Source: a virus. From it: DNA of 64,000 nucleotides. Below are positions 199 through 14,847 of this stretch, one piece after another. Position 1 is the first letter of the stretch, and each line of letters opens with the position of its first letter. Location of the stretch: IMG/VR virus record IMGVR_UViG_3300045988_168437; one strand, given 5' to 3'. Made by a program: the position numbers and the translations under genes. The notes beneath the pieces are model-generated. The model saw only the letters and a list, made by a program, of their open reading frames with translations. It did no database searches and was not told the DNA's origin.

Positions 199-214
199 GT
201 TTATTTCCTTTCTG

Positions 215-551: not shown

Positions 552-560
552 AAGACACCC

Positions 561-1148: not shown

Positions 1149-1149
1149 A

Positions 1150-2411: not shown

Positions 2412-2576
2412 ACCACCATACTCCCATTATGAATCCTATACATATTCCAATTATAAGTTTAACCATATTATCACCTCTTTAGTTAGTATTTTTATATCTA
2501 TTCTTATGATTTAATTATATAATTTTAATATCAATGTGTCAACATAAAATAGTAAGAAAAGAGAGGAAATTCCTCT

Positions 2577-2846
2577 CTAATCCTTCATGCTATCATATAT
2601 ATTACTTATAGTCTTTTTAAAAGTATTATCTTTATTCTCTTTTGGTTTAGTAACCTTTGTAACAGGCTTACTCTTTTGAGAGGGAGTAGCTGCTAAAACT
2701 ACCCCCTTAAGCATAAACTTTCTTTCTAATAACATTCTTTCAAGTGCTTGACTGTTTGTAGAAAGTCCATTTTCCTCTTTATAAGCTTTTACATCGTCAT
2801 ACAAGTCTTTAGAGAGAGAATAACTAGTCGTTATCTTCTTCGCCAT
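2577..2846 (-). CDS. parR: ParR-like ribbon-helix-helix centromere-binding protein
   Basis: 89 aa located directly downstream of, and overlapping, the ParM-like gene. The N-terminus has an RHH-like pattern (KKITTSYSLSKDLYDDVKAY...ALERMLLE). Confidence 0.55.
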   Translation of the reverse strand: MAKKITTSYSLSKDLYDDVKAYKEENGLSTNSQALERMLLERKFMLKGVVLAATPSQKSKPVTKVTKPKENKDNTFKKTISNIYDSMKD

Positions 2847-3777: not shown

Positions 3778-3805
3778 ATTATTACCTCCAATATGTTTTT
3801 CTTTA

Positions 3806-3834
3806 ATAGTAGCACATATAATTTTTATTTGCAA
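3806..3834 (-). promoter_or_regulatory. parMR promoter candidate
   Basis: On the minus strand: TTGCAA (3834-3829), 17 nt spacer, TACTAT (3811-3806). Confidence 0.55.
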
Positions 3835-3846
3835 TAATTTTTTGTT

Positions 3847-3974
3847 AATATATCGTTAATTTTTCATTAGTGTTTAAAAATATATTAATATATCATTGAG
3901 AAACAATTAATATCTTGTGAATATATCATTAACATTCCTGATGCACTATATTTTTCTGTGAATATATCATTAGT
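3847..3974. repeat. parC-like centromere: four direct repeats of (G)AATATATC(A/G)TTA
   Basis: Copies start at about 3847, 3887, 3920 and 3961, spaced 33-41 bp apart, immediately upstream of the parMR promoter. Confidence 0.65.
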
Positions 3975-4185
3975 AAACCATGAGTATATAACTGACACTC
4001 TCTATACAAGATTTAGAGCGTTTTGTTTTTCTTCCCTTTGTAATTTATCAATATTATTATAATCAAACTCTTAGAATGGCTCTGACGGGGTTGTATAGTA
4101 AGTATGTAAACATTCTATTTTTCATATAGATTTTGCCGTCTTTAAATTATGAATTTTATAATATAATTTCTTGCATTTTTTATTT

Positions 4186-4330
4186 GGAGATTTGGGATTA
4201 GGAGGAGATGTGTGGGGTTTTATTGAGTGTTGGAGGGGTGATTTTGTAGTGTGTCTGCTGCGTAAACAACTGTTGTCGCCTGCCTGAAATACTCGGAAAA
4301 AATTTCCTAAAACTGGGGGGTGGGGGGATA
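4186..4330. other. G-rich (plus-strand) island in an AT-rich desert; candidate ncRNA or DNA structural site
   Basis: Contains GGAGGAG, GTGGGG, GGAGGGG and GGGGGGTGGGGGG (4315-4327), plus the palindrome ACAACTGTTGT. No ORF. Confidence 0.3.
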
Positions 4331-4451
4331 AATTCTATATAATAATTATATTATATCTACTATTTGAAAATAGGAGCATGATTTTTAAAAAAGGCTACTG
4401 GGAGAGGTTCTAAAATTTTACTTGCATTTTTTACGGTGAATAATTGAAAAA

Positions 4452-4553
4452 TTGCAATTGTTTATAAATTGCAAGCCCTTACATTTTTTCGTCAATTTGC
4501 TTAAATCGTCTGACAATTTACTACAATTGCATAATCCCTCATTAAACTTGCAA
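4452..4553. repeat. cluster of TTGCAA / CAATTGCA motifs
   Basis: At least four copies (4452, 4469, 4524, 4548) within about 100 bp. Confidence 0.5.
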
Positions 4554-4957
4554 TTCGACTCCAAAGTTTCATTAATAAAAAAATATAATAATATTTAATA
4601 ATTTATTTAAAAAATAATCCCTTTATTGTCTGAAATTCCATATAATTTTATTATATAACTTTATTGATTTTATGATATAATATAGACAATATAATATATT
4701 ATTTTTACATTTATTCATAGAATTAAAATACTAATGTATTATACTATTATAATTTATAATTAAATATTAAACAATAACTCATATTATATAATATAGTGTC
4801 GAATACATATAACATTTATTAAAAACAGTAACAGTCCATATGGCTTTTTAAAGCCTTTGCATTCCCTTCCTAATACCTTTATACTTTTAAAGCTTTAAAC
4901 TCTTTATAAGCTTAATAACAGGTTATTAGCCTTATAACCTATAATTTACTATTTATA

Positions 4958-5084
4958 AACAAATAGTTTACTAATACTATACTTTAAAAAAAATTAGTAT
5001 TTATATACTAAAAGTTTACTAATACTATACTAAAATAAGTTTAATATTTTTAAACAAATAGTTTACTAATACTATACTTTAAAC
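4958..5084. repeat. iterons: three copies of AGTTTACTAATACTATAC
   Basis: Copies at 4965-4982, 5013-5030 and 5060-5077 (47-48 bp spacing), with a degenerate fourth copy near 5098-5130. Flanked by an extremely AT-rich tract at 4560-4800. Confidence 0.7.
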
Positions 5085-5696
5085 AAGTATATTTATATTA
5101 AACAAATAGTATATAAATATTAAACTTTAAAATTAGGTTTTTTACCTTCTAAAATCCAGTTTAAAAAGCCTATTTTATAAAGGTATAAAAGTACTATATA
5201 TATATTTAGAGTACTTTTATATTGTCAATTAAGGAATATATAACAGGCTTTTTTATCCCTGTTATATTATATCTAACAACTAACTGGTAAAAGATTATAT
5301 ATTAATAGAGGGGATATTATAACCTTGTAACCTGTTATATAGATAATACTAGATATTTACAACTGGATAACTGGATAATAGATTAACACTAGTTAATAAC
5401 TAGTACTCTATATAAGAATATAATAGCCTTATGCTTTATTAATAATATAAATTATCCATAAGCTATATAAAACCTCTTACATTGGCAATACGGGGATATT
5501 TTAGCCTATACAGTATTTTCAGGAATATATAACCATACCATATAAATTTATTTTTATGGATAAATAAAGTTTTTTAAGAAATATTATTTTTATTATTGAA
5601 ATATTAAACTAGATAGTATACTATTAAAGTATCTTAATTGATAAAACATCTTATATTAATAGCTTAAAACTTTTTTAAAAACTTTTTATAAAGTAG

Positions 5697-5725
5697 TTGA
5701 CAATATAAAGTATATAAGCTACAAT
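5697..5725 (+). promoter_or_regulatory. sigma-70-type promoter
   Basis: TTGACA, 17 nt spacer, TACAAT. Confidence 0.65.
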
Positions 5726-5796
5726 ATAAGAAACAGTACTTTTAATATATTAGTTAACAGGCTTTAAAAAAAGTTTAAAAACTTTTAAAAAAGTAG

Positions 5797-5825
5797 TTGA
5801 CAAGTGATTAAAAAAGTACTATACT
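5797..5825 (+). promoter_or_regulatory. sigma-70-type promoter (tandem copy exactly 100 bp downstream of the previous one)
   Basis: TTGACA, 17 nt spacer, TATACT. The upstream AAAACTTTT...AAGTAGTTGACA context is duplicated. Confidence 0.65.
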
Positions 5826-5891
5826 TAAATTAATAAATGAGTTGATAGTTTTACACTAAAAACTTATTTATTACATATTAACCATAGGAAG

Positions 5892-5921
5892 TTGACTTAT
5901 TCAACTACTATACTTTATAAT
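5892..5921 (+). promoter_or_regulatory. sigma-70-type promoter
   Basis: TTGACT, 18 nt spacer, TATAAT. Confidence 0.55.
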
Positions 5922-6189
5922 AAAGGGGACTAGTAAAGTATTAGTTATCTTATATCCTCACCTAAACAACTTGTAGCTTTATAACTTGTACGGTAAAATA
6001 GAATATTCGACAACTTTGGAAAATCCTTCAATATACCGACTACTCTTTATGTAGTAGCTCATTCTAGTATATTAAAAGCCTGTATCTTGAAGTGCTTAAG
6101 AGTGCTTGGAGTTAGGAGTGTAAGAGTAACAACTCTTTGGATTAAGAATAAATTTTTATCTTTAACCTTTTAACCCTTTTTAAAGGTTT

Positions 6190-6220
6190 GGGGGATACCT
6201 GTTTAAAATCCCCTGTTTTA
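6190..6220 (+). terminator. hairpin plus U-tract in the operon leader (possible attenuator)
   Basis: GGGGAT (6191-6196) pairs with ATCCCC (6208-6213), followed by TGTTTTAAAATT. Confidence 0.3.
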
Positions 6221-6292
6221 AAATTAATCTTTGGGTATAAGGTGACAACTTTATACTCAAATACTAGTTTTAAAATAAAAGGGGGATATAAA

Positions 6293-6496
6293 ATGATAAA
6301 TTTAAGAAAAAAACCAGTAGAGACTAAAAATTATAGTGTGCAATTAAACAAAAACGATAGCTTACTATTTAAAGCATTCTTAAAAGGACTTGGAGCAACA
6401 TATGAAACAAGTGCTTGTTATGAGAAAATCCATTTTGAATTAACTTTAAATCGTATGGAATTAGGCAAAGTTGCTAGTTTTTTAAATGAATTATAA
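6293..6496 (+). CDS. small hypothetical protein (67 aa)
   Basis: The ATG at 6293 follows AAAAGGGGGATATAAA. The track ORF from 6188 uses an unlikely upstream TTG. Confidence 0.6.
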   Translation: MINLRKKPVETKNYSVQLNKNDSLLFKAFLKGLGATYETSACYEKIHFELTLNRMELGKVASFLNEL

Positions 6497-6504
6497 TTAT
6501 TCAA

Positions 6505-6521
6505 GGGACTTTAAAAGTCCC
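6505..6521 (+). other. conserved hairpin 5 nt upstream of the HDV-like cleavage site
   Basis: GGGACTTTAAAAGTCCC. Confidence 0.7.
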
Positions 6522-6526
6522 TATAT

Positions 6527-6587
6527 GGTTCTAGTGATTGATAACCTTCTCGTGGTGGGACTGAATTCGACTAATTTCAATCAATCA
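6527..6587 (+). ncRNA. HDV-like self-cleaving ribozyme candidate A
   Basis: P1 GGUUCUA (6527-33) pairs with UGGGACU (6556-62), starting with a G1-U wobble. P2 UGAUUGAU/AUCAAUCA. P3-L3 CC-UUCUCGU-GG, then GA (P1.1), then GACUAA (J4/2 C candidate). Predicted cut 6526|6527. Confidence 0.75.
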
Positions 6588-6613
6588 AATTTTGGATAAA
6601 AGGGGATAAAAAA

Positions 6614-6928
6614 ATGAAAAAATTAAATTTAAGTGGTGGTTTTCAAGTTTGGGCAACAACTGACTATATTCCAAAAATTGGTCATATTTTGATAACTTTA
6701 GACAATGAACCTATTCCAAGCAATCCAAGTGCATGGGATAAAAATTGTCGTATTTATAAGATAGTTAACAACTTTGAAGACTATGAAATTGATGAAATTT
6801 TAGAAAATCAAGAAATTTCTTTAGATTTAATTTTACCTATTCGATTTTATGTAGACTTTAATAAAATTGATAGCAATAACTTTAAAATCATAGTCAATCG
6901 AGCTTTAAAACACTTAAACAGGGATTAA
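6614..6928 (+). CDS. hypothetical protein (104 aa)
   Basis: ORF track. AAAAGGGGATAAAAAA precedes the ATG. Confidence 0.7.
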   Translation: MKKLNLSGGFQVWATTDYIPKIGHILITLDNEPIPSNPSAWDKNCRIYKIVNNFEDYEIDEILENQEISLDLILPIRFYVDFNKIDSNNFKIIVNRALKHLNRD

Positions 6929-6936
6929 TAAATCCC
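6921..6936 (+). other. hairpin upstream of the HDV-like cleavage site (overlaps the stop codon)
   Basis: GGGATTAATAAATCCC. Confidence 0.6.
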
Positions 6937-6941
6937 TTCAT

Positions 6942-6994
6942 GGTAGCAAGAGTCAACCTCCCCGTGGTGCTACTGGATAATCAACTAATGACTC
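6942..6994 (+). ncRNA. HDV-like self-cleaving ribozyme candidate B (minimal, no P4)
   Basis: P1 GGUAGCA/UGCUACU (7 bp, G1-U wobble). P2 GAGUCA/UGACUC. P3-L3 CC-UCCCCGU-GG, GG after P1 (P1.1), and CUAA just before the P2 3' strand. Predicted cut 6941|6942. Confidence 0.8.
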
Positions 6995-7023
6995 AAATAT
7001 AATAATGTAAAGGGGATAAAAAG

Positions 7024-7362
7024 ATGTTAAAAGAAAAATTAAACCAAATTAAAGAAAATTCAGAAGGGATTAAACTATTTGTAATTGACGATATTTTAGA
7101 ATTCAACGAAAGTGATGACGAAATAACAGGTTATGTAAATGATGTATTAAATTATGGTTGTTCTAGTGGTTGTGTATCAAGTTTGATTTATTATAGTGAT
7201 ACAGACAAATTTTTTACAAAATATCATGATGAAATACTTGAAATGTTAGAAGACTTTAAAAATGAATGTGATATAAACTTTGAAATTAATTCAAATAACC
7301 TTGCATGGTTTGGATATGAAGAGACTTTAAGATGTTTAGCAAGTGAATTAGGTATTTGGTAA
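7024..7362 (+). CDS. acidic hypothetical protein (112 aa)
   Basis: ORF track with AAAGGGGATAAAAAG SD context. Confidence 0.7.
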   Translation: MLKEKLNQIKENSEGIKLFVIDDILEFNESDDEITGYVNDVLNYGCSSGCVSSLIYYSDTDKFFTKYHDEILEMLEDFKNECDINFEINSNNLAWFGYEETLRCLASELGIW

Positions 7363-7368
7363 AATGAA

Positions 7369-7385
7369 GGGACTTTTAAAGTCCC
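7369..7385 (+). other. conserved hairpin upstream of the HDV-like cleavage site
   Basis: GGGACTTTTAAAGTCCC. Confidence 0.7.
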
Positions 7386-7390
7386 TAAAT

Positions 7391-7451
7391 GATAGCAAGA
7401 GTTTACCTCCCCGTGGTGCTATTGGAAACAAGGGAACTTGGCTAAAAACTC
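7391..7451 (+). ncRNA. HDV-like self-cleaving ribozyme candidate C
   Basis: P1 GAUAGCA/UGCUAUU. P2 GAGUUU/AAACUC. CC-UCCCCGU-GG, then GG. P4 CAAG-GGAA-CUUG, then GCUAA. Predicted cut 7390|7391. Confidence 0.8.
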
Positions 7452-7479
7452 AAATTTTAGATAAAAGGGGATAAAAAAG

Positions 7480-8028
7480 ATGAAAAATTTAGTAAACTTA
7501 AACGATTTCGAAATAAACAGAGAGAGTGCAAAAATGATGCTTGAAAACAATAGTGAGTTTAGAATGACACTTGAAAATAGTGCTTTTGATAACGAATGTT
7601 TTTATATCAAAGAAGAATATTTAGATTTATTACCTACTGTAAAATATAATATAGATTTCTGTAAAACAAGTTTAAGCATAGGGAATAGTGATGTATACGA
7701 TTTACTTTATGATATAATTTCAGAGTCCGAAACATGGATAGCACACCTTGATGATGTTGAAATTCTTATGCAAAAGATGGAAACTTTCAGAAACATGATG
7801 GGAAATATTGCGGGATATAGTTATCAATATGAAAGACTTGAAAATCGAGCTACTAAACTAATAGAAGAGTTTTTGGAAATCCTTGAAAAACATCTTGAAA
7901 GCATAATTGATGGGATTAATGATGACTATATTGTAGATGATATTCTTAATTCGTGTTTTGATGAAATTTGGAGTGGAATATATATCAATCCTAAGACTTT
8001 TGAATTATACGAGTTAAAACATCTATAA
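7480..8028 (+). CDS. acidic hypothetical protein, paralogue of 9857-10411
   Basis: Shares LVNL(N/S)DFE(I/L)NRE(S/N)AKM(M/I)LENNSEFR and the C-terminal IYINPKT..LYELKHL with ORF 9857. Confidence 0.75.
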   Translation: MKNLVNLNDFEINRESAKMMLENNSEFRMTLENSAFDNECFYIKEEYLDLLPTVKYNIDFCKTSLSIGNSDVYDLLYDIISESETWIAHLDDVEILMQKMETFRNMMGNIAGYSYQYERLENRATKLIEEFLEILEKHLESIIDGINDDYIVDDILNSCFDEIWSGIYINPKTFELYELKHL

Positions 8029-8033
8029 AAATG

Positions 8034-8115
8034 AAGGCGAAATTCGAAACAAGGACCACGGTCCTTGTCTGTAAGTAATGAGTTGCTTATACTGACGAGA
8101 TAGCTCGAGCCTTAC
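8034..8115 (+). ncRNA. type II hammerhead ribozyme candidate HH1
   Basis: C-GAAAC; stem III AAGGACC/GGUCCUU; GUC cut site (8069|8070); stem I UGUAAG/CUUAUA; CUGACGAG. Loop I GAGUU pairs with downstream AGCUC. Closing helix AAGGC/GCCUU. Confidence 0.8.
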
Positions 8116-8141
8116 AAATAAATAAAAAGGGGATAAAAAAG

Positions 8142-8315
8142 ATGAAAAAAAGTGTAAAAATCATGGTAGTTTCAGGAATATTAGTAATAGGAATGATGGT
8201 ATTTCATAAACCATTAACCTTAAAAGCTATGGATTTAGTAGATTATTACGGAGAAAAAACTGGTAAAAATGTTGTAGAAATGATAGACTTTTTAAATGAA
8301 GTTTATTATCTATAA
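8142..8315 (+). CDS. small membrane protein (57 aa, below the ORF-track cutoff)
   Basis: ATG follows AAAAGGGGATAAAAAAG. Reads MKKSVKIMVVSGILVIGMMVFHK... (hydrophobic N-terminus). Flanked by HH1 and HDV-D. Confidence 0.55.
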   Translation: MKKSVKIMVVSGILVIGMMVFHKPLTLKAMDLVDYYGEKTGKNVVEMIDFLNEVYYL

Positions 8316-8321
8316 ATGATA

Positions 8322-8338
8322 GGGACTTTAGAAGTCCC
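8322..8338 (+). other. conserved hairpin upstream of the HDV-like cleavage site
   Basis: GGGACTTTAGAAGTCCC. Confidence 0.7.
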
Positions 8339-8342
8339 GTAT

Positions 8343-8403
8343 GGTTCTAGTTGTTGGTAGCCTTCCCGTGGCGGAACTGAATTCGACTAATTTTAACCAA
8401 CAA
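8343..8403 (+). ncRNA. HDV-like self-cleaving ribozyme candidate D
   Basis: P1 GGUUCU/GGAACU. P2 UUGUUGGU/ACCAACAA, which covaries with copy A. P3-L3 GCC-UUCCCGU-GGC, then GA, then GACUAA. Predicted cut 8342|8343. Confidence 0.75.
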
Positions 8404-8426
8404 AAATGATAGTAAAGGGGATAAAG

Positions 8427-8909
8427 ATGATGATAAAAAGATTACCAGAAACAAGTTTAATGACTATTAAGGCAATGATAAGAGAATATAGCGAAGTTGA
8501 GACAATAGTTATTAATGAAGTGGATAACTACTGGAATGATAGATGTAAGCAAATATATCAAGCTCCAGGGACTTCTTTAGAAGTCGATATATATCAAGGT
8601 ACTTGTAAAATCAATATCCATGATAGAGAATTGATGGTAAGAAGTTTATATGATGAAGCGAATAAATCAACAGATAGTGTATTTCTTGACTCTGAGCGTC
8701 ATTGTATACAAGGTATGTATGCTCATAGAAAAGATGATATGTTTGAAATTTATTTAAAAGCATACATTAGATGTATTGAAGAATATATCTCTAATATGCA
8801 GCATGTATTTGACAAATATTCTCTAGCAACTTGGATACAAAATCATCCTGACAACTTCAACAAGTGGGCAGTAGATGAAGACACTTGCGAATTTTTCAGA
8901 ATGATATAA
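8427..8909 (+). CDS. hypothetical protein
   Basis: Start moved to the ATGATG at 8427, after AAAGGGGATAAAG. The track start at 8406 lies just after the ribozyme and lacks an SD. Confidence 0.7.
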   Translation: MMIKRLPETSLMTIKAMIREYSEVETIVINEVDNYWNDRCKQIYQAPGTSLEVDIYQGTCKINIHDRELMVRSLYDEANKSTDSVFLDSERHCIQGMYAHRKDDMFEIYLKAYIRCIEEYISNMQHVFDKYSLATWIQNHPDNFNKWAVDEDTCEFFRMI

Positions 8910-8914
8910 ATGAT

Positions 8915-8931
8915 GGGACTTTTAAAGTCCC
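8915..8931 (+). other. conserved hairpin upstream of the HDV-like cleavage site
   Basis: GGGACTTTTAAAGTCCC. Confidence 0.7.
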
Positions 8932-8936
8932 TATAT

Positions 8937-8999
8937 GGTAGTAATTGGTTCGCCTCCACGTGGCACTACTGGAAACGAGTTTACTCGGCTAAGAGTCAA
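8937..8999 (+). ncRNA. HDV-like self-cleaving ribozyme candidate E
   Basis: P1 GGUAGU/ACUACU. P3-L3 GCC-UCCACGU-GGC, then GG. P4 CGAG-UUUA-CUCG, then GCUAAG. P2 UUGGUU/AGUCAA (two G-U pairs). Predicted cut 8936|8937. Confidence 0.7.
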
Positions 9000-9018
9000 A
9001 AAAGAAGGGATAAAAAAG

Positions 9019-9339
9019 ATGATAAAAAAGATTGAAGAAAAAATTAAAGAATTGGGTTTCGTTGTAGGTTGTTACAACGATAAAATTGATGACATTTTAA
9101 CTCCAGGAGCAGCTCGTAAAGTTTGTGGGTTACTAGAAGAAGAATACACAGACGAATTGATGCGAATTAGAGGTAAACTATATAAAGTCTGTATAGCAAC
9201 TGTTGACGATGAAAAAGATATCAATATATATCATGCATTAGACTATTATAGACAATACGGAGAAGAACATCTGGATAATGACTATGAAGAAAAAATGATG
9301 ACATTAAAGGAATATAGAGCATTGAAAAAGATGGTATAA
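9019..9339 (+). CDS. hypothetical protein (106 aa)
   Basis: Start moved to the ATG at 9019, after AGAAGGGATAAAAAAG. The track start at 8935 lies inside the ribozyme. Confidence 0.7.
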   Translation: MIKKIEEKIKELGFVVGCYNDKIDDILTPGAARKVCGLLEEEYTDELMRIRGKLYKVCIATVDDEKDINIYHALDYYRQYGEEHLDNDYEEKMMTLKEYRALKKMV

Positions 9340-9340
9340 A

Positions 9341-9430
9341 ACAAATTCGAAACAAAGGACCATGGAGTAATTCATGGTCCTTTGTCTGTAAGCAATAGGC
9401 TACTTATACTGACGAGATAGCCTGTTGCTA
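9341..9430 (+). ncRNA. type II hammerhead ribozyme candidate HH2
   Basis: UUCGAAAC; stem III AAAGGACCAUG/CAUGGUCCUUU; GUC (cut 9386|9387); stem I UGUAAG/CUUAUA; CUGACGAG. Loop I CAAUAGGCUA pairs with downstream UAGCCUGUUG. Confidence 0.8.
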
Positions 9431-9456
9431 AAAATGATGATAAAAAGGGGATAAGA

Positions 9457-9744
9457 ATGATGAGAGAACATGCAATATATAAAGATTATATCAGATATAT
9501 AGGAGATGGATTTAATTTTTCAGAATTATATTCATATGAAGATGGTAAAGAATTACATTTCAATAAATTTATGGATTATTGGGAAGACTCTAAAACTGGT
9601 AGATTTTATCGTTGGAAAAATTCAAAAGATGATAAAATTATAAAGGAATGTCATGAAGAAACACTTGATTATTTTGGATTTAAATCTAGTCGACTAAATG
9701 ATGATAAAGAATCTTTAAAAGATGAAGAATATCTACCATTCTAA
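9457..9744 (+). CDS. hypothetical protein (95 aa)
   Basis: ORF track with AAAAGGGGATAAGA SD context. Confidence 0.7.
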   Translation: MMREHAIYKDYIRYIGDGFNFSELYSYEDGKELHFNKFMDYWEDSKTGRFYRWKNSKDDKIIKECHEETLDYFGFKSSRLNDDKESLKDEEYLPF

Positions 9745-9746
9745 TG

Positions 9747-9829
9747 AAGGTAATAAATTCGAAACAAGGACTAAGGTCCTTGTCTGTAAATGATAGGCTC
9801 TTTATACTGACGAGATAGCCTATTACCTT
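9747..9829 (+). ncRNA. type II hammerhead ribozyme candidate HH3
   Basis: Closing helix AAGGUAAU/AUUACCUU; UUCGAAAC; stem III AAGGAC/GUCCUU; GUC (cut 9784|9785); stem I UGUAAA/UUUAUA; CUGACGAG. Loop I AUAGGCU pairs with downstream AGCCUAU. Confidence 0.85.
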
Positions 9830-9856
9830 TACAATAGAAATGAAAGGGGATTAAAG

Positions 9857-10411
9857 ATGATGATGGGAAAATTAGTAAACTTAAGTGACTTTGAATTAAA
9901 TAGAGAAAATGCAAAAATGATACTTGAAAACAATAGTGAGTTTAGACAAGTTTTAATTGATGAATTATTTGAAAATGAAATTGATTATTATTGTTCAGAA
10001 ATATTAGAAAAAATACCTGAAATAAGTTGGAATATCAATTATTCAGATGTTAGAATATGGACTAAGTTTGGTTCTAATGTTATTAACATAATTGAAGGTA
10101 TATTTGATATTGACGAATATCTTACAGAAAACTGTAATATCATAATCAGTAAATTAAAAGTTTATCATAAATATCTGACTACTTGTTGTCAATATGATAA
10201 TAGATGGGATAGATTAATTGCTAGAACTGAAAAATTAGTTGACGATTTATTGAATGAACTTGAGCAAATGATAGGAACATATTTAGAAGCGATTAACGAT
10301 GATGATGACGAAATAATCGAATATTGTATAAGTTCAATGGAAGGGATTATATGTTCTACAATTTATATAAATCCTAAAACATTAGATTTATACGAATTAA
10401 AGCATTTATAA
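9857..10411 (+). CDS. acidic hypothetical protein, paralogue of 7480-8028
   Basis: See the 7480 entry. AAAGGGGATTAAAG SD context. Confidence 0.75.
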   Translation: MMMGKLVNLSDFELNRENAKMILENNSEFRQVLIDELFENEIDYYCSEILEKIPEISWNINYSDVRIWTKFGSNVINIIEGIFDIDEYLTENCNIIISKLKVYHKYLTTCCQYDNRWDRLIARTEKLVDDLLNELEQMIGTYLEAINDDDDEIIEYCISSMEGIICSTIYINPKTLDLYELKHL

Positions 10412-10413
10412 TA

Positions 10414-10442
10414 TTGACAGTTTTACACAAAAGTGATACTAT
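10414..10442 (+). promoter_or_regulatory. internal sigma-70-type promoter
   Basis: TTGACA, 17 nt spacer, TACTAT. Confidence 0.6.
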
Positions 10443-10448
10443 TAAATC

Positions 10449-10530
10449 AAGGGGAGTAATCCCCTTCCTAATGCAGTAGCTAAAAGCTAGAGGTCGCAAC
10501 TCCTCATAAAACATATGCAGAGCGGGAAAA
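10449..10530 (+). ncRNA. unclassified structured leader (three hairpins) in a slot otherwise occupied by ribozymes
   Basis: AAGGGGA-GUAA-UCCCCUU, UAGCU-AAA-AGCUA, and GAGG-UCGCAACU-CCUC. I cannot match it to a known core. Confidence 0.3.
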
Positions 10531-10545
10531 TGAAAGGGGATAAAG

Positions 10546-10992
10546 ATGATGAAAATAAAAGAATTATATGAAAACATTAGTAACTGTTTAGATTGGATTA
10601 AAATCAACAATAGTGACTTAAAAGACATATTTGAAGGTGCTAAAGCATTAAGAAGAGGAATTCAAGTCTTAGAATATGATAAAGCAATGATAGGTAAAAT
10701 TGATGATAACTATTTTATTTCAGATTTTATTATGAATATTCTTAAAAAGAATCTTCCAGAGTATCAATTAAGTTTAGGCATAATTGACGATGTTTTAGAA
10801 GAACTAGACATAGATGATGATACTTTAGAAGAATTAGATGAAAGCGAATTTGAAAATCATGTTATAATCAAAAATACTTTCGTAGATGTAAAAGAAGCAA
10901 TTTCTTTTGATGATTACTGGGATTTACCAGATTTTGATAGTCTTTTAAAAATGTTTGAATTTGCAAAAGAAGAAATTGGTTACTTATTATAA
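10546..10992 (+). CDS. very acidic hypothetical protein (148 aa)
   Basis: ORF track with AAAGGGGATAAAG SD context. Confidence 0.7.
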   Translation: MMKIKELYENISNCLDWIKINNSDLKDIFEGAKALRRGIQVLEYDKAMIGKIDDNYFISDFIMNILKKNLPEYQLSLGIIDDVLEELDIDDDTLEELDESEFENHVIIKNTFVDVKEAISFDDYWDLPDFDSLLKMFEFAKEEIGYLL

Positions 10993-11082
10993 GTTTAAAT
11001 TCGAAACAGGTAGTACAGGAAATCCTGTATTGCTTGTCTGTAAGTAATAGGCTACTTATACTGACGAGATAGCCTGAACTTA
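10990..11082 (+). ncRNA. type II hammerhead ribozyme candidate HH4
   Basis: Closing helix UAAGUU/AACUUA; UUCGAAAC; 12-bp stem III AGGUAGUACAGG/CCUGUAUUGCUU; GUC (cut 11038|11039); UGUAAG/CUUAUA; CUGACGAG. Loop I AGGCUA pairs with UAGCCU. Confidence 0.8.
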
Positions 11083-11110
11083 TAAATATGATGATAAAAA
11101 GGGGATAAAG

Positions 11111-11557
11111 ATGATGGCAAAGAGAATTGATATAGTAAGATGTAAAATGGTAAAGGAAAGTTCAGTTAAGTATGAAAAAAGAGTGATAACATCACCTTTT
11201 GATGGCTATATAATAGTAAAAGATTTTCTTGAAGACTTAGACAGAGAACAAGTGATGATGCTTTGTTTAAATAGTAAAAATGAACCTACAAACTTATCTG
11301 TTATAAGTATGGGGACTGTAAATAGTTCATTGATACATCCAAGAGAAGTATTTAAAATAGCAATACTTTCAAATGCTAGTAAAATCATGTTGGCACATAA
11401 TCATCCATCAGGAAATCCAAGTCCTTCTCATGAAGATGAATTAATGACAAAGAGAATCAAAGATTGTGGAGATATGATGGGAATTCAATTATTGGACCAT
11501 ATAATTGTAGGCGATAACACTTATTATAGTTTTAAAGAAAATAATTCAATATTATAA
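11111..11557 (+). CDS. radC: RadC-like JAB/MPN-domain protein
   Basis: HNHPSGNPSPSHED (JAMM-like H-x-H-P-S-G...S-x-x-D motif typical of RadC/DUF2466). 148 aa. Confidence 0.8.
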   Translation: MMAKRIDIVRCKMVKESSVKYEKRVITSPFDGYIIVKDFLEDLDREQVMMLCLNSKNEPTNLSVISMGTVNSSLIHPREVFKIAILSNASKIMLAHNHPSGNPSPSHEDELMTKRIKDCGDMMGIQLLDHIIVGDNTYYSFKENNSIL

Positions 11558-11565
11558 TATTTTAC

Positions 11566-11594
11566 TTGTTATCTTTATACAAAAATGATATAAT
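11566..11594 (+). promoter_or_regulatory. internal sigma-70-type promoter immediately upstream of HDV-like ribozyme F
   Basis: TTGTTA, 17 nt spacer, TATAAT. The predicted TSS is near 11601. Confidence 0.55.
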
Positions 11595-11610
11595 AAGGAT
11601 AGCAAGATAT

Positions 11611-11674
11611 GACGGCAAAGGTTCTTCCTCCCCGTGGTGTCGTCGGGAACTCCTAACAGGTGCTAAATAGAACC
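11611..11674 (+). ncRNA. HDV-like self-cleaving ribozyme candidate F
   Basis: P1 GACGGCA/UGUCGUC. P2 GGUUCU/AGAACC. CC-UCCCCGU-GG, then GG. P4 CUCCU-AAC-AGGUG, then GCUAA. Predicted cut 11610|11611. Confidence 0.75.
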
Positions 11675-11695
11675 AAAAATGAAAGGGGAATAAAG

Positions 11696-12082
11696 ATGAT
11701 GAAAGAATTAAAAAGACTAAATCAAATTGATTTAACAGAAAATCAAACAAAAAAACTCTTAAATAATGATATTTTTAAGGAAAGTGTCATAGACAAACTT
11801 GCTAGTTATTTTAATCATTGTATTTATGAAAAATATGTACTTAATCATATAATTCATTTTGAATGTGAATACAATACAAAAACAAATTTCTTTAAATATA
11901 AAATAGTTGAAGAGAATGATAAAAATCAAGAAGTTTTGGATAACTTAAAAAACGATATAAATAACTATTATCAATATTTGCAAGATAAAAATAGCCTTAA
12001 AGAGAATATAAAAGTCATCGTAAAGAGATTAGATGATAATTATTATGTTGATAATGATTTTAATGTTTATAAAGTTATTTAG
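11696..12082 (+). CDS. hypothetical protein
   Basis: Start moved to the ATGATG at 11696, after AAAGGGGAATAAAG. The track start at 11660 lies inside the ribozyme. Confidence 0.7.
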   Translation: MMKELKRLNQIDLTENQTKKLLNNDIFKESVIDKLASYFNHCIYEKYVLNHIIHFECEYNTKTNFFKYKIVEENDKNQEVLDNLKNDINNYYQYLQDKNSLKENIKVIVKRLDDNYYVDNDFNVYKVI

Positions 12083-12091
12083 GAGGTAAAA

Positions 12092-12358
12092 ATGATGAAA
12101 ACTTTAAATCAAATTGAATGGAAAAATCTGTTAAAAAATATGGATACAGAAGAAGGCAGACAAGAGTTTATAAGCAGAGTACCATCTGGAATATATGGTG
12201 GTAAAAATGAAGACGGAGAAGAAGTTATAACAGTTGTATCTCAAGGATTTGGGATGACAATAAAGACTAAACATCATGAGAAACCAAACTGGTGGGAATG
12301 TGTTGATTATGATGAACTTGGCTGCATGGAATGTGTAACATATGAAAGAGCAGATTAA
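12092..12358 (+). CDS. hypothetical protein (88 aa)
   Basis: ORF track with AGGAGGT SD. Confidence 0.7.
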   Translation: MMKTLNQIEWKNLLKNMDTEEGRQEFISRVPSGIYGGKNEDGEEVITVVSQGFGMTIKTKHHEKPNWWECVDYDELGCMECVTYERAD

Positions 12359-12361
12359 TTA

Positions 12362-12454
12362 GAAGGATAAATTCGAAACAGGTAGAATGAGGCAACTCAT
12401 TTTACTTGTCTATAAGGTTAAGCTACTTATACTGACGAGATAGCTTAATCCTTC
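12362..12454 (+). ncRNA. type II hammerhead ribozyme candidate HH5
   Basis: Closing helix GAAGGAU/AUCCUUC; UUCGAAAC; 12-bp stem III; GUC (cut 12410|12411); stem I UAUAAG/CUUAUA; CUGACGAG. Loop I UUAAGCUA pairs with UAGCUUAA, which covaries relative to the other copies. Confidence 0.85.
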
Positions 12455-12476
12455 AAAATGAAAGGGGATAAAAAAG

Positions 12477-13004
12477 ATGATGAAAAGAGAAAATGTTGTG
12501 AAATTTTTAGATTTATTACGTTCTGATGAAGTTAATGACGAAATAAAAGATTTATATATTGAACTATTAGAAGGACATATTCAAGATGCTCCAGGAACTC
12601 AAATTGAAATTATATTAGACTTAGACGGAGAAATTGATGAAAGATACTTTGTAGGAAATTCAACTAGAATGGATGTATATGAAGGCGATGCAATAGTTGT
12701 AGCAAGTATCAGATATGATGCAAACGTTACTTATGAAGACATGGGAGAATTATCAGATGCTTTAGATGAATCTGAATATGAAAAATTCGTAGAATGGATA
12801 TTTGCATACGAAGATATATCAGAAGATGATGAAAAAGAATATTTCGAAGAAAACTTTACATGGGAAAATTTTTCAGAATTTAATCCTGATAGATTTAAAG
12901 AGCTAGAAGAAGAATCTTGGCAAGCAAATGTTGATTATTACGGATATGAAGAAATTGGGCAAAAATTATCTGAATGTATACAACAATTAGAAACTTTATT
13001 ATAG
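12477..13004 (+). CDS. extremely acidic hypothetical protein (175 aa); DNA-mimic-like composition
   Basis: ORF track with long D/E-rich runs. No motif recognised. Confidence 0.7.
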   Translation: MMKRENVVKFLDLLRSDEVNDEIKDLYIELLEGHIQDAPGTQIEIILDLDGEIDERYFVGNSTRMDVYEGDAIVVASIRYDANVTYEDMGELSDALDESEYEKFVEWIFAYEDISEDDEKEYFEENFTWENFSEFNPDRFKELEEESWQANVDYYGYEEIGQKLSECIQQLETLL

Positions 13005-13020
13005 GGGCAGCAATTGCTCC

Positions 13021-13080
13021 TACTTTAAACCTACCAATGATGGTCCAAAGTCCATATGGAAAAAGGTGATGGGAGTAAAT
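13021..13080 (+). ncRNA. twister ribozyme candidate (type P1) Tw1
   Basis: UACU-U-U|AA; P2 ACCU/AGGU; ACC-AAU-G; P4 AUGG/CCAU with loop UCCAAAGU; A-rich strand; GAU-GGG-AGUA. Same block order as canonical twister. Predicted cut 13026|13027. Preceded by hairpin 13006-13020. Confidence 0.7.
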
Positions 13081-13141
13081 AAAGGCGAAGCTACTAAAAT
13101 ACTCGTCTATATATAAGAGTAGCAATTAAAAGGGGGTAAAA

Positions 13142-13456
13142 ATGAAGGTATATTTAGGGAATGCTTTTAGTTTACAAATGTTAGACACAACAAAGACTAC
13201 AGATATAAAAGTAACACCAGTTGATGCATCAGTTGTAGCAAGTTCAGATTTTACATCAGTTATAGGTCATCCAGATACAGCTGCAGTAGTTTCAAACATC
13301 TTAGGAAAAGACGTAGCTTGTAATAGAGTTTCTGTTAGTTTAAGTAAAGGTGACATTTTATATGTAGCACAAGTTGTTGGTGGCAGACTTCCTGCTGGAG
13401 CTACCACTCTACCAGACGGATTTAGTTTAGTATTTTTAAAAGTTGTCATTCTATAA
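13142..13456 (+). CDS. DUF1874 / STIV-B116-like protein (family assignment from memory)
   Basis: 104 aa. MKVYLGNAFSLQML...SVIGHPDTAAVVSNILG...ILYVAQ resembles that family. Confidence 0.45.
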   Translation: MKVYLGNAFSLQMLDTTKTTDIKVTPVDASVVASSDFTSVIGHPDTAAVVSNILGKDVACNRVSVSLSKGDILYVAQVVGGRLPAGATTLPDGFSLVFLKVVIL

Positions 13457-13521
13457 AAAGGTAGAAGGCTTATAGGAGTGTCTCAAACTCCTACATTATG
13501 TAAATGAAGGGAGAATTAAAA

Positions 13522-13659
13522 ATGAAAGTTAAAAAAGAAATTACAATTGAAGAAGAATTTGAAATACATATGAAAAGCATGGAAGGGCATGTTTGCTATG
13601 GTTGCTCAGGTTGTAAGTTTGCTTACTATGGAGTTTGCCCATATGTTCAAGAGGGTTAA
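13522..13659 (+). CDS. small Cys-rich protein (45 aa, below the ORF-track cutoff)
   Basis: ATG follows GAAGGGAG. Reads MKVKKEITIEEEFEIHMKSMEGHVCYGCSGCKFAYYGVCPYVQEG. Confidence 0.4.
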   Translation: MKVKKEITIEEEFEIHMKSMEGHVCYGCSGCKFAYYGVCPYVQEG

Positions 13660-13665
13660 TCCCTC

Positions 13666-13730
13666 TACTTTAAACTCACTTGACTAAGTCAAAAGGTCCA
13701 AAGTCCTTGAAAAGAGTGATGGGAGTAAAT
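13666..13730 (+). ncRNA. twister ribozyme candidate (type P1, with P3 insert) Tw2
   Basis: Same conserved blocks as Tw1. P2 ACUC/GAGU and P4 AAGG/CCUU both covary. An extra hairpin UGAC-UAA-GUCA sits at the optional-P3 position. Predicted cut 13671|13672. Preceded by hairpin GAGGG-UUAAU-CCCUC. Confidence 0.7.
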
Positions 13731-13747
13731 GAAAGGGGTAAAATGAT

Positions 13748-14023
13748 ATGAATAATTCTATTAAAAGATTAAAAGAAAAATTAATTGGAAAAGAATTCAA
13801 AGAAGAAGATTATAATAAAGAGTTAAATAATCTTGTAAAAGAATTTCATTTAGAGGCAAATACTTGTGATTTTGATTTTGACAGATTATATCACATTGGA
13901 TATGAAGAAAAAGAAAATTGGGATGATGAATATGTTTGTAGTATACAAGTTAATTATATTCCTGTATATGATGAAAATGGATATCATGACTTTGATATCA
14001 TAAAAATATTTGATGTGTTTTAA
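13748..14023 (+). CDS. hypothetical protein (91 aa)
   Basis: ORF track with AAAGGGGTAAAATG context. Confidence 0.65.
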   Translation: MNNSIKRLKEKLIGKEFKEEDYNKELNNLVKEFHLEANTCDFDFDRLYHIGYEEKENWDDEYVCSIQVNYIPVYDENGYHDFDIIKIFDVF

Positions 14024-14053
14024 TATAATTAAATCATATAGGGAGGTATGAAA

Positions 14054-14221
14054 ATGAGAACTTACTTAGCAGATTATGAAGACGATAATTTTGAAACAAT
14101 AATAGCGAATACAGATAATGAAGCTTACTTTGAAGCTCTTGACCATGAAGAAGAACATGGGACTTTATATAATCTTTTTGAAATTGATGATGACTACAAT
14201 AAAATAAGAGAAGTTAAATAG
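14054..14221 (+). CDS. small acidic protein (55 aa, below the ORF-track cutoff)
   Basis: ATG sits 7 nt after GGGAGGT. Reads MRTYLADYEDDNFETIIANTDNEAYFEALDHEEEHG... and its stop abuts HH6. Confidence 0.5.
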   Translation: MRTYLADYEDDNFETIIANTDNEAYFEALDHEEEHGTLYNLFEIDDDYNKIREVK

Positions 14222-14296
14222 AAGGCAAAATTCGAAACCGTGGTGGTCCACGGTCTGTAAGCAATAGGCTACTTATACTGACGAGATAGCCTTGCC
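14221..14296 (+). ncRNA. type II hammerhead ribozyme candidate HH6
   Basis: Closing helix GGCAA/UUGCC; UUCGAAAC; stem III CGUGG/CCACG; GUC (cut 14255|14256); UGUAAG/CUUAUA; CUGACGAG. Loop I AGGCUA pairs with UAGCCU. Confidence 0.8.
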
Positions 14297-14426
14297 AACA
14301 ATAAAAAGGAAGGTAAGATAAAATAGCTATCAAGAACTCGTGAAAACGGGTGTTGAATAAATTATCATTTTGGGAGAGGGTTGCCCTCTCCTATCCCCAA
14401 TATAAATGGGAGAGAGGAGTATAATA

Positions 14427-14777
14427 ATGATAAATACTTATGCTTATGAAATAAAACCACATATCTTTGACAGTATTATAGTTACTGTGAAAGATGATGA
14501 TAATAACTATGTTGAATTATTAGCTATGAAAGATAAGACAATTGGGGATTATAGAACTTTTTTACACGGTGAAGTAAATAGCACTATTTTCCAAAAAGAT
14601 TATCGTAATAGTAAATATTATAAAAAGGTAGGCAGAGGTAGAATAAAGGACGAAAAAAGAACCCTAGATACAATTAGCAGATTAGTTGGGACAGGAAAAC
14701 ATATTATTCTTTTTCGTTTAGATAACTATATAAAAGATAATAATTTTGAAGGTGACATTAAAATATCATTTAAGTAA
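14427..14777 (+). CDS. hypothetical protein
   Basis: Start moved to the ATG at 14427, after GAGAGGAG. Confidence 0.65.
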   Translation: MINTYAYEIKPHIFDSIIVTVKDDDNNYVELLAMKDKTIGDYRTFLHGEVNSTIFQKDYRNSKYYKKVGRGRIKDEKRTLDTISRLVGTGKHIILFRLDNYIKDNNFEGDIKISFK

Positions 14778-14786
14778 TATATATAA

Positions 14787-14814
14787 TAATCCCCTGATTG
14801 GGGGTTATTTTTTT
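14787..14814 (+). terminator. rho-independent terminator closing the ribozyme operon
   Basis: TAATCCCC-TGATT-GGGGGTTA followed by TTTTTTT. Confidence 0.75.
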
Positions 14815-14847
14815 GCTTAAAAATAATTTATTTTTTACAGAAATCAC

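What the first reader, a model, noticed from the sequence alone, without database searches (positions are those of the whole stretch)
8034..14296. Six type II hammerheads with a covarying loop-I to stem-II pseudoknot
Every copy contains, in order:
- C-GAAAC (C11.1, G12-A14, A15.1);
- a variable stem III hairpin of 5-12 bp whose sequence differs in each copy;
- G-U-C (cut after C17);
- stem I U(G/A)UAA(G/A)...(C/U)UUAUA;
- CUGACGA-G (C3-A9, G10.1).

Both ends are closed by a distal helix that differs per copy (AAGGC/GCCUU, AAGGUAAU/AUUACCUU, GAAGGAU/AUCCUUC, GGCAA/UUGCC). Stem II is therefore the open stem, which makes this type II.

The loop of stem I pairs with the strand directly after CUGACGAGAU: AUAGGCUA/UAGCCUAU, UUAAGCUA/UAGCUUAA, GAGUU/AGCUC. 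That is clear covariation for a tertiary pseudoknot, as reported for many type II hammerheads.
Basis: partly seen in the sequence, partly recalled or inferred. Interest (0 to 1): 0.8.

Follow-up and report, generated by a model that had tools for sequence, protein, structure and literature searches.

The report
Six phage hammerhead ribozymes between genes
The six repeats are genuine type II hammerhead self-cleaving RNAs of an already described kind, sitting between the small genes of one phage operon in which nearly every gap between genes carries a self-cleaving ribozyme of one of three classes.

Summary
Six + strand copies (8034-8113, 9340-9429, 9747-9829, 10988-11084, 12362-12454, 14224-14296) carry the full hammerhead core in type II order. 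Stems I and III and the loop-I/3'-tail pseudoknot covary, both among the six and across 88 distinct relatives from viral and metagenome contigs.

This is the architecture Perreault et al. 2011 described: a 2-bp stem II, a pseudoknot to the 3' tail, and clusters flanking phage genes. They are therefore new members of a known kind.

Rfam's Hammerhead_II model misses all six, although it detects a GC-richer sibling. A 5-11 bp closing helix beyond the pseudoknot is lineage-specific and is absent from the Rfam consensus.

The hammerheads lie in one operon, from tandem promoters at about 5.7-5.9 kb to a terminator at 14.8 kb. That operon also holds six HDV-like and three twister-like candidates, giving 15 in about 8 kb. 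Fourteen of the 15 predicted cleavage sites lie 1-5 nt after a stable hairpin, and each ribozyme precedes a strong ribosome-binding site.

Most likely function (inferred): cutting the polycistronic early transcript into single-gene mRNAs with hairpin-protected 3' ends. HH2 is a recombinant of two hammerheads.

The parts
8034..8113 (+). HH1, type II hammerhead. Distal helix 8034-8038/8109-8113 (AAGGC/GCCUU). Predicted cut after C17 at 8069. Pseudoknot GAGUU(G)/(U)AGCUC.
   Evidence: (97.9 bits). Orthologues L060 and L067 have GAGCU in loop I, so the window's G-U wobble is a canonical pair there.
9340..9429 (+). HH2, type II hammerhead. 15-bp stem III. Cut after 9386. Pseudoknot CAAUAGGCUA/UAGCCUGUUG. 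Distal helix only AACA/UGUU. Recombinant copy.
   Evidence: 72.1 bits; the junction with L086 lies inside the ribozyme at 9378
9747..9829 (+). HH3, type II hammerhead. Distal helix AAGGUAAU/AUUACCUU. Cut after 9784. Pseudoknot AUAGGCU/AGCCUAU.
   Evidence: (101.4 bits)
10988..11084 (+). HH4, type II hammerhead. Distal helix UAUAAGUUU/GAACUUAUA, which overlaps the upstream stop codon. 14-bp stem III. Cut after 11038.
   Evidence: (81.2 bits)
12362..12454 (+). HH5, type II hammerhead. Distal helix GAAGGAU/AUCCUUC. 14-bp stem III. Cut after 12410. Pseudoknot UUAAGCUA/UAGCUUAA.
   Evidence: (78.6 bits)
14224..14296 (+). HH6, type II hammerhead. Distal helix GGCAA/UUGCC. Cut after 14255. Pseudoknot AGGCUA/UAGCCU.
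   Evidence: (92.8 bits)
5697..5921 (+). Three tandem near-consensus sigma-70-type promoters (5697-5725, 5797-5825, 5892-5921; 11 of 12 matches each). Presumed start of the ribozyme-rich operon.
   Evidence: consensus scan only
14785..14815 (+). Intrinsic-terminator-like hairpin followed by a U run. Presumed end of the operon.
6527..6588 (+). HDV-like ribozyme candidate a, preceded by the hairpin GGGACUUUAAAAGUCCC.
   Evidence: helices read by hand, no Rfam score
6942..6995 (+). HDV-like ribozyme candidate b, preceded by the hairpin GGGAUUAAUAAAUCCC.
7391..7454 (+). HDV-like ribozyme candidate c.
   Evidence: RF02682, 24.3 bits, below the gathering score of 44
8343..8403 (+). HDV-like ribozyme candidate d, with a minimal P4 and GACUAA in place of GGCUAA.
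   Evidence: no Rfam hit
8937..9001 (+). HDV-like ribozyme candidate e.
   Evidence: RF02682, 40.2 bits against a gathering score of 44
11611..11675 (+). HDV-like ribozyme candidate f.
   Evidence: RF00094, 22.3 bits
10465..10528 (+). Twister type-P1-like candidate, preceded by the hairpin GGGGAGUAAUCCCC.
   Evidence: 35.9 bits against a gathering score of 67.2
13022..13076 (+). Twister type-P1-like candidate, preceded by an 8-bp hairpin.
   Evidence: 34.4 bits
13667..13726 (+). Twister type-P1-like candidate, preceded by the hairpin AGAGGGUUAAUCCCUCU.
   Evidence: 46.6 bits

Best explanation
The six elements are active type II hammerhead ribozymes transcribed as part of one long early transcript of a large, low-GC Bacillota-type phage.

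Each ribozyme folds once its 3' part has been made. Stem III and stem I form as hairpins. A 2-bp stem II forms (G10.1-C11.1, A10.2-U11.2, then U.U). The strand right after stem II pairs with loop I in a 5-10 bp pseudoknot that holds stems I and II side by side. In this lineage a 5-11 bp closing helix then joins the two flanks.

The RNA cuts itself after C17. The upstream gene's mRNA then ends in the long stem III hairpin with a 2',3'-cyclic phosphate. The downstream mRNA starts with a 5'-OH and the folded ribozyme body, followed by a strong ribosome-binding site.

Together with the HDV-like and twister-like elements in the other gaps, this cuts the operon into single-gene mRNAs with defined, structured ends.

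Shown here: sequence, architecture, covariation and genomic placement. Inferred: catalysis in vivo, and the effect on mRNA stability and translation.
For: - Core and order: read directly. The descriptor finds 6 against 0 in 200 shuffles.
- Covariation: stem III is 96.7% paired, stem I 98.5% and the pseudoknot 78% over 88 distinct sequences. The covariation score is 0.611, against 0.154 shuffled and 0.06-0.13 slid. Pseudoknot pairs alternate AU/GC/CG (for example 87-131: AU 32, GC 24, CG 7).
- Pseudoknot complementarity: 13.5 for matched partners against 9.26 +/- 0.25 for swapped partners.
- Closing helix: 15 of 16 distinct 5'/3' helix sequence pairs (classes) among the subfamily copies form 5-11 bp at a fixed distance from the core, with unrelated sequences. 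Matched partners score 17.9; mismatched partners score 11.0 +/- 3.5.
- Placement: every copy lies between a stop codon and the AAAGGGGAUAAA..AUG ribosome-binding site, on the coding strand.
- Operon frame: tandem promoters and a terminator.
- Hairpins: 14 of 15 predicted cleavage sites of three ribozyme classes are preceded by a stable hairpin, mean -11.1 kcal/mol against a background of -2.2 +/- 2.6. The hairpin sequences differ in relatives.
- Published tests of this architecture: pseudoknot disruption lowers k_obs 20- to more than 100-fold at 0.5 mM Mg2+, and clustered phage hammerheads cleave 2-kb polycistronic transcripts (PMC3088659).
Against: - There are no cleavage or transcript data for these sequences.
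- Rfam RF02276 does not score them.
- Stem I is AU-rich (6 bp with a G.U). Nested MFE folding prefers the pseudoknot helix over stem I, so co-existence of the two rests on covariation and precedent.
- HH2 lacks a proper closing helix and may be impaired.
- The stabilising role of the 3' hairpins and of 5'-OH ends is inferred from general knowledge of bacterial RNA decay, not tested.
- The biological role of phage and bacterial ribozyme clusters is still called 'largely elusive' in the literature (PMC6765202).
Confidence: 0.85

Rival explanations
1. The ribozymes are conditional rather than constitutive. Cleavage, or release of the two products, is controlled by the ribosome terminating on the upstream gene or by a switch between the closing helix and the pseudoknot.
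For: The 5' strand of the closing helix starts 0-6 nt after the upstream stop codon, or overlaps it in HH2 and HH4. The maximal closing helix and the pseudoknot compete for 1-3 nt at their junction. After cleavage the two products stay joined by the 5-11 bp closing helix plus the 2-bp stem II.
Against: There is no conserved extra domain or ligand pocket. The wider family mostly lacks the closing helix. Overlap of adjacent helices by 1-3 nt is common and need not be a switch.
Confidence: 0.12
2. The copies are selfish or neutral repeats that spread and recombine between intergenic regions. They may self-cleave, but this gives the phage no benefit.
For: The paralogues share 70-90% identical cores. 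HH2 is an HH-HH recombinant. The L086:2444-2536 copy has U16.1>C and a weakened pseudoknot. Gene cassettes between ribozymes are gained and lost among relatives.
Against: Three unrelated ribozyme classes occupy equivalent positions, each with a hairpin before the cut and a ribosome-binding site after it. Compensatory changes maintain all helices.
Confidence: 0.1
3. The repeats are DNA-level signals such as repeated promoters or recombination boundary sequences, and the hammerhead resemblance is incidental.
For: TTGTCT-17 nt-TATACT inside HH1-HH5 matches 9 of 12 sigma-70 consensus positions. A recombination junction lies inside HH2.
Against: HH6 and most of the wider family lack the -35-like hexamer. 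102 promoter-like sites were found against 80 expected by chance. A DNA signal would not preserve RNA helices through compensatory changes, nor keep all hammerhead core residues invariant in 88 sequences.
Confidence: 0.02
4. Pairs of ribozymes excise each cistron as an RNA with 5'-OH and 2',3'-cP ends that is then ligated into a circle or spliced, for example by RtcB.
For: Every ORF in the 6.5-14.3 kb stretch is flanked by ribozymes. The end chemistry fits RtcB-type ligation (general knowledge).
Against: Perreault 2011 looked for circular or spliced products in clustered phage hammerheads and found none. No complementarity between cassette ends was noted here.
Confidence: 0.03

Closest known systems
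Type II hammerhead ribozymes with a loop I / 3'-tail pseudoknot (Perreault et al. 2011, PMC3088659; Rfam RF02276 Hammerhead_II)
   Same: The GSC order, the full catalytic core, a 2-bp stem II, a pseudoknot between loop I and the nucleotides immediately 3' of stem II, and location between phage genes in clusters. A member of the same AAUUC...CUGACGAGAUAGC subfamily (L014:625-691) passes the Rfam threshold.
   Different: The window copies have an AU-rich 6-bp stem I with a 9-10-nt loop I and are not detected by RF02276. They add a 5-11 bp closing helix outside the pseudoknot and a conserved AAAUU 5' bridge, which the Rfam consensus lacks (1 nt 5' of stem II, an 8-nt free tail). Stem III is unusually long at 7-15 bp.
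Clustered hammerheads flanking prophage genes (Clostridium scindens, Agrobacterium tumefaciens ardA, Azorhizobium; Perreault 2011)
   Same: Several hammerheads flank single genes or short blocks. The genes between them are not constant. Processing of long phage transcripts has been proposed.
   Different: Density and mix: here 6 hammerheads, 6 HDV-like and 3 twister-like candidates lie in about 8 kb of one operon, one in almost every intergenic gap.
Gene neighbourhoods shared by bacterial twister and hammerhead ribozymes (summarised in PMC6765202 and PMC10085705)
   Same: Different self-cleaving classes occur close to each other near phage genes. The reason is unknown.
   Different: This locus adds a shared layout across classes: a hairpin just before the cut and a ribosome-binding site after the ribozyme. 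I did not find this described in the papers read (search limited to the held library).
Synthetic ribozyme insulators such as RiboJ (own knowledge, not checked here)
   Same: A self-cleaving ribozyme upstream of a ribosome-binding site gives each gene a defined, structured 5' end independent of upstream sequence.
   Different: This is a natural, multi-class array, with protection of the upstream 3' end as well.

Membership tests
Hammerhead ribozyme (class) | Conserved core C3 U4 G5 A6 N7 G8 A9, G12 A13 A14, A15.1-U16.1, and a non-G residue at position 17. | tested here: met
   All six copies have CUGACGA, GAA, A15.1...U16.1 and C17. These positions are almost invariant across the 88 distinct sequences shown; one search counts A15.1-U16.1 as paired in 87 of 88.
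Hammerhead ribozyme (class) | Three helices (I, II, III) around the core, supported by covariation. | tested here: met
   Stem III is 96.7% paired with 6 of 8 pairs changed on both sides. Stem I is 98.5% paired with 6 of 6 changed on both sides. Stem II is 2 bp and invariant, so it is uninformative.
Hammerhead ribozyme (class) | Site-specific self-cleavage 3' of position 17, giving 2',3'-cP and 5'-OH ends. | not testable with these tools
   No experimental or transcript data were available.
Type II (GSC) permutation | [quoted passage not shown] | tested here: met
   The order is GAAA - stem III hairpin - C17 - stem I hairpin - CUGANGA in all six copies.
Type II hammerhead with pseudoknot (Perreault 2011) | [quoted passage not shown] | tested here: met
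   5-10 bp in each copy. Covarying pairs are seen. Swapped-partner control: 13.5 against 9.26 +/- 0.25.
Rfam RF02276 Hammerhead_II | A covariance-model score at or above the gathering threshold of 37 bits. | tested here: not met
   There is no hit at the gathering threshold or at E<=10. The positive control works: L017 copies score 28-45 bits and L014:625-691 scores 43.5 bits. This criterion reflects model sensitivity and does not define the class. My own model R1 links the window copies to L014 (51.5 bits).

The most novel reading that the evidence does not exclude
The locus is a natural 'ribozyme-insulated cassette operon'. In it, three unrelated self-cleaving classes are interchangeable parts of one design: ORF, then a stable hairpin, then the cut, then the ribozyme body, then the ribosome-binding site.

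On this reading, what selection maintains is the cut plus structured ends on both products. The conserved ribozyme sequences also act as recombination sites through which single-gene cassettes are gained and lost between phages; HH2 is such a junction.

The closing helix of this hammerhead lineage would keep the two products together until the helix is unwound, for instance by the ribosome terminating on the upstream gene.
Probability: 0.4. Interest if true: 0.6.

Novelty: new member of a known kind. Interest (0 to 1): 0.33.

Why it matters
The hammerheads themselves add little. The type, the pseudoknot and the phage clustering were published in 2011.

Their value lies in the context. This is a compact operon in which almost every intergenic gap has a ribozyme, drawn from three classes that share the same flanking layout. 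That makes it a clean natural system for the still open question of why phages and bacteria cluster self-cleaving ribozymes.

It also shows two further things:
- The curated Rfam type II model misses AU-rich members, so such arrays are probably under-counted in low-GC phage genomes.
- Ribozymes can be break points of phage mosaicism.

Tried and rejected
- **Rfam cmscan.** Run at the gathering threshold and at E<=10 on the whole window, on 9 kb and on 511 nt. It gave no hammerhead hit. A positive control shows this is a model sensitivity gap.
- **Phage genome searches.** Megablast of 6-20 kb and blastn of HH6 against 50,697 phage records gave no match. No isolated phage or host could be named. 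Only DnaE at 38% amino-acid identity or less to Geobacillus E3, phiCD211 and phiL47-type phages was found.
- **tRNA scan.** None found.
- **Pfam on ten cassette proteins.** Only RadC-like JAB and STIV B116-like domains were found; the rest are unknown.
- **Further copies.** A search with my own model found none elsewhere in the window.
- **Promoter reading.** The TTGTCT...TATACT match was considered and rejected (with the covariation evidence).
- **Closing helix as a general feature.** Rejected: it is enriched only in the window's lineage.
- **Nested MFE folding.** It cannot show stem I and the pseudoknot together. No pseudoknot-aware 3D modelling was available.
- **R-scape.** Not available; the count of structure pairs was used instead.


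Full report
**1. What is there**

The octamer CTGACGAG occurs six times in the window, all on the + strand, against 0.14 expected. Reading the six sites gives one layout:
- a variable 5' strand
- AAAUU
- C11.1, G12 A13 A14, A15.1 C15.2
- a hairpin of 7-15 bp (stem III)
- G16.2 U16.1 C17
- U(G/A)UAA(G/A), then a 9-10 nt loop, then (C/U)UUAUA (stem I)
- C3UGACGA9, then G10.1 A10.2 U10.3
- a strand complementary to loop I
- a variable 3' strand complementary to the 5' strand

This is the hammerhead core in type II (GSC) order.

A generic descriptor finds six on the + strand, none on the - strand and none in 200 dinucleotide shuffles. A covariance model (R1) built from 12 relatives, with only three window copies among them, recovers exactly these six at 72-101 bits. 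The next best match scores 16.8 bits.

The extents are 8034-8113, 9340-9429, 9747-9829, 10988-11084, 12362-12454 and 14224-14296. The predicted cuts fall after 8069, 9386, 9784, 11038, 12410 and 14255.

**2. Is the structure real?**

Among the six copies alone, 94.8% of cells are paired, against 82.1 +/- 1.9 in shuffles. The covariation score is 0.442 against 0.196, and slid controls reach at most 0.10. The pseudoknot is 97.4% paired, with two pairs changed on both sides.

To gain power I scanned public collections for TTCGAAAC..GTC..CTGACGAGAT. This leaves stems I and III, the pseudoknot and the flanks free. The yields were:
- 18 viral loci
- 4 genome loci from a slightly longer version of the pattern

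R1 aligned 123 matches, 88 of them distinct. On that alignment stem III is 96.7% paired, stem I 98.5% and the pseudoknot 78%. The covariation score is 0.611, against 0.154 shuffled and 0.06-0.13 slid. Pseudoknot pairs alternate between types, for example AU 32 / GC 24 / CG 7 at one position and GC 36 / AU 32 at another.

The alignment was fitted to the nested helices but not to the pseudoknot, so the pseudoknot counts are if anything conservative. An independent test that swaps loop-I and tail partners between sequences gives 13.5 against 9.26 +/- 0.25.

**3. Comparison with what is known**

Perreault et al. 2011 (PMC3088659) described four relevant things:
- natural type II hammerheads
- a stem II as short as two base pairs
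- a pseudoknot between loop I and the 3' tail 'immediately downstream of stem II'
- clusters of hammerheads flanking single genes in prophages

They also showed that disrupting the pseudoknot lowers k_obs 20- to more than 100-fold at 0.5 mM Mg2+, and that clustered copies cleave about 2-kb polycistronic transcripts.

The suggested cmscan test is negative. RF02276 gives no hit at the gathering score, nor at E<=10 in 64-kb, 9-kb or 511-nt searches. A positive control shows why. The same search detects type II copies in L017 (28-45 bits) and a GC-rich member of the very same AAUUC...CUGACGAGAUAGC subfamily, L014:625-691 (43.5 bits). It detects none of the AU-rich copies of the window's relative L006. 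The Rfam consensus has a GC-rich 9-bp stem I, so the miss is a sensitivity gap.

**4. What is lineage-specific**

The Rfam consensus has one nucleotide 5' of stem II and an unpaired 8-nt tail. In the window and its relatives (L086, L006, L027, L059, L060, L067, L092) the two flanks form a closing helix. I grouped the subfamily copies by the sequences of their 5' and 3' helix strands. This gives 16 distinct helix pairs, here called classes, and 15 of them form 5-11 bp.

The helix ends 4-6 nt before C11.1 and starts 7-10 nt after G10.1. Its sequences are unrelated between copies:
- AAGGC/GCCUU
- GUGUAAAACA/UGUUUUAUAC
- AAGGUAAU/AUUACCUU or AUUGCCUU
- UAUAAGUUU/GAACUUAUA or AAGCUUAUA
- GAAGGAU/AUCCUUC
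- GGCAA/UUGCC
- GGCAAA/UUUGUC
- AUAGUCUA/UAGACUAU
- AGUAACA/UGUUACU

Matched strands score 17.9, against 11.0 +/- 3.5 for mismatched strands. In the wider family the enrichment is weak (11.3 against 9.8 +/- 0.23), so the helix is an add-on of this lineage.

The pseudoknot strand and the closing helix abut, or share 1-3 nt. The conserved AAAUU on the 5' side must bridge back across the pseudoknot helix. How it does so is inference only.

**5. Context**

The window is a low-GC (about 27%) phage-like genome with DnaB, primase, RecJ, DnaE-type polymerase and NrdD. Its polymerase is at most 38% identical to those of Geobacillus E3, phiCD211 and phiL47-type phages of 113-176 kb. No close nucleotide match exists among 50,697 phage records.

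The hammerheads lie on the coding strand. Each sits between a stop codon and a strong ribosome-binding site (AAAGGGGAUAAA..AUG). Three tandem near-consensus promoters sit at 5697-5921 and a terminator at 14785-14815. Between them almost every intergenic gap carries a ribozyme candidate:
- Six HDV-like elements. The motif CCUYCNCGUGG occurs 6 times against 0.42 expected. P1 and P2 pairings can be read by hand. Only 8937-9001 comes near the Rfam threshold, at 40.2 bits against 44.
- Three twister-P1-like elements, at 34-47 bits against a gathering score of 67.

That makes 15 candidates in about 8 kb. The proteins between them are mostly unknown small ORFs, plus a RadC-like JAB protein and a STIV B116-like protein.

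**6. A shared layout across classes**

For 14 of the 15 predicted cleavage sites, the 32 nt upstream fold into a stable hairpin ending 1-5 nt before the cut. The range is -8 to -18 kcal/mol, with a mean over all 15 sites of -11.1, against an operon background of -2.2 +/- 2.6.

In the hammerheads this hairpin is stem III. In the HDV-like and twister-like elements it is a separate hairpin that is not part of the ribozyme, and its sequence differs between copies and between relatives.

Every upstream product would therefore end in a hairpin with a cyclic phosphate. Every downstream product would start with a 5'-OH and a folded ribozyme body, followed by a ribosome-binding site. This supports the published proposal that such ribozymes process polycistronic phage transcripts (PMC3088659; PMC6765202). 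It also suggests that the structure of the ends is part of what is selected. The effect on decay and translation is inferred, not shown.

**7. Mosaicism**

L086 (OLOX01000258.1) matches the window at 99.3% from window position 9378 onward, and 9378 lies inside HH2. The 5' half of HH2 matches a different L086 hammerhead (L086:2062-2162, 92%). L086 has an extra gene plus an extra hammerhead between them.

The window's HH2 is therefore a recombinant of two hammerheads, with loss of one cassette. This explains why its two closing strands no longer match (AACA/UGUU only). L006 lacks the RadC, HDV-like and ORF cassettes altogether. Ribozymes are thus break points of cassette gain and loss.

**8. Verdict**

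The novelty is that of new members of a known kind, with a lineage-specific closing helix. The interest is modest for the hammerheads themselves and higher for the operon-wide layout, which remains an inference that experiments listed elsewhere in this report could test.

Noticed in passing
window 6527-6588, 6942-6995, 7391-7454, 8343-8403, 8937-9001, 11611-11675 (+): Six HDV-like ribozyme candidates share CCUYCNCGUGG (6 found against 0.42 expected) and have P1 and P2 pairings readable by hand. Only one comes near the Rfam gathering score (RF02682, 40.2 against 44 bits). Two have no Rfam hit, and 8343-8403 has a minimal P4 with GACUAA.
   Followed up: partly
window 10465-10528, 13022-13076, 13667-13726 (+): Three twister type-P1-like elements lie in intergenic gaps. 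They score 34-47 bits against a gathering score of 67.2.
   Followed up: partly
window 6500-14255, just upstream of each predicted cleavage site: 14 of 15 predicted ribozyme cuts, across three classes, lie 1-5 nt after a stable hairpin (mean -11.1 kcal/mol against -2.2 +/- 2.6 background). For the HDV-like and twister-like elements the hairpin is separate from the ribozyme: GGGACUUUUAAAGUCCC or a near variant before four of them, and other sequences elsewhere.
   Followed up: partly
window 9378 (inside HH2) versus L086:2476; L086:2444-2536: HH2 is a chimera of two hammerheads present in the relative L086, with one gene cassette deleted. The extra L086 copy has U16.1>C and a weakened pseudoknot, so it may be decaying.
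   Followed up: yes
window 30446-31561 (+) and 31615-31688 (+): A transposase/TnpB-like ORF (phrog_506) is followed 53 nt later by a RAGATH-18 RNA (67.6 bits; gathering score 44.9). This matches the published IS607 TnpB with its RAGATH-18-derived guide RNA (PMC11061315).
   Followed up: partly
L006:1732-1797, L006:3705-3771, L027:1923-1976, L092:445-498 and 119-173: Relatives carry a core variant, CUGAUGA-U-GAUAGCC, with an extra U between A9 and G10.1. All helices and the pseudoknot are kept.
   Followed up: no
L017 (IMGVR_UViG_3300033551_000003), 74-11059: Another viral contig has 11 or more type II hammerheads in 11 kb, each followed by a UUAGGAGA ribosome-binding site. It is a GC-richer counterpart of the array studied here.
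   Followed up: no
window 14297-14430 (+): After HH6 there is a hairpin GGGAGAGGGUUGCCCUCUCC, whose CCCUCUCC arm could instead pair with the downstream ribosome-binding site GGGAGAGAGGAG of the last gene of the operon. This may be an element that occludes the ribosome-binding site.
   Followed up: no
window 13085-13141 and 13457-13503 (+): Two intergenic gaps have no recognised ribozyme but do contain hairpins (GCUACU...AGUAGC and UAGGAGUGUCUCAAACUCCUA).
   Followed up: no
window 11111-11557 and 13142-13456 (+): Of the ten cassette proteins scanned, only two have a reliable Pfam match: RadC-like JAB (PF04002, 6.9e-44) and STIV B116-like (PF08960, 7.2e-10). One further match (Sec3_CC) falls below Pfam's cut-off.
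   Followed up: no
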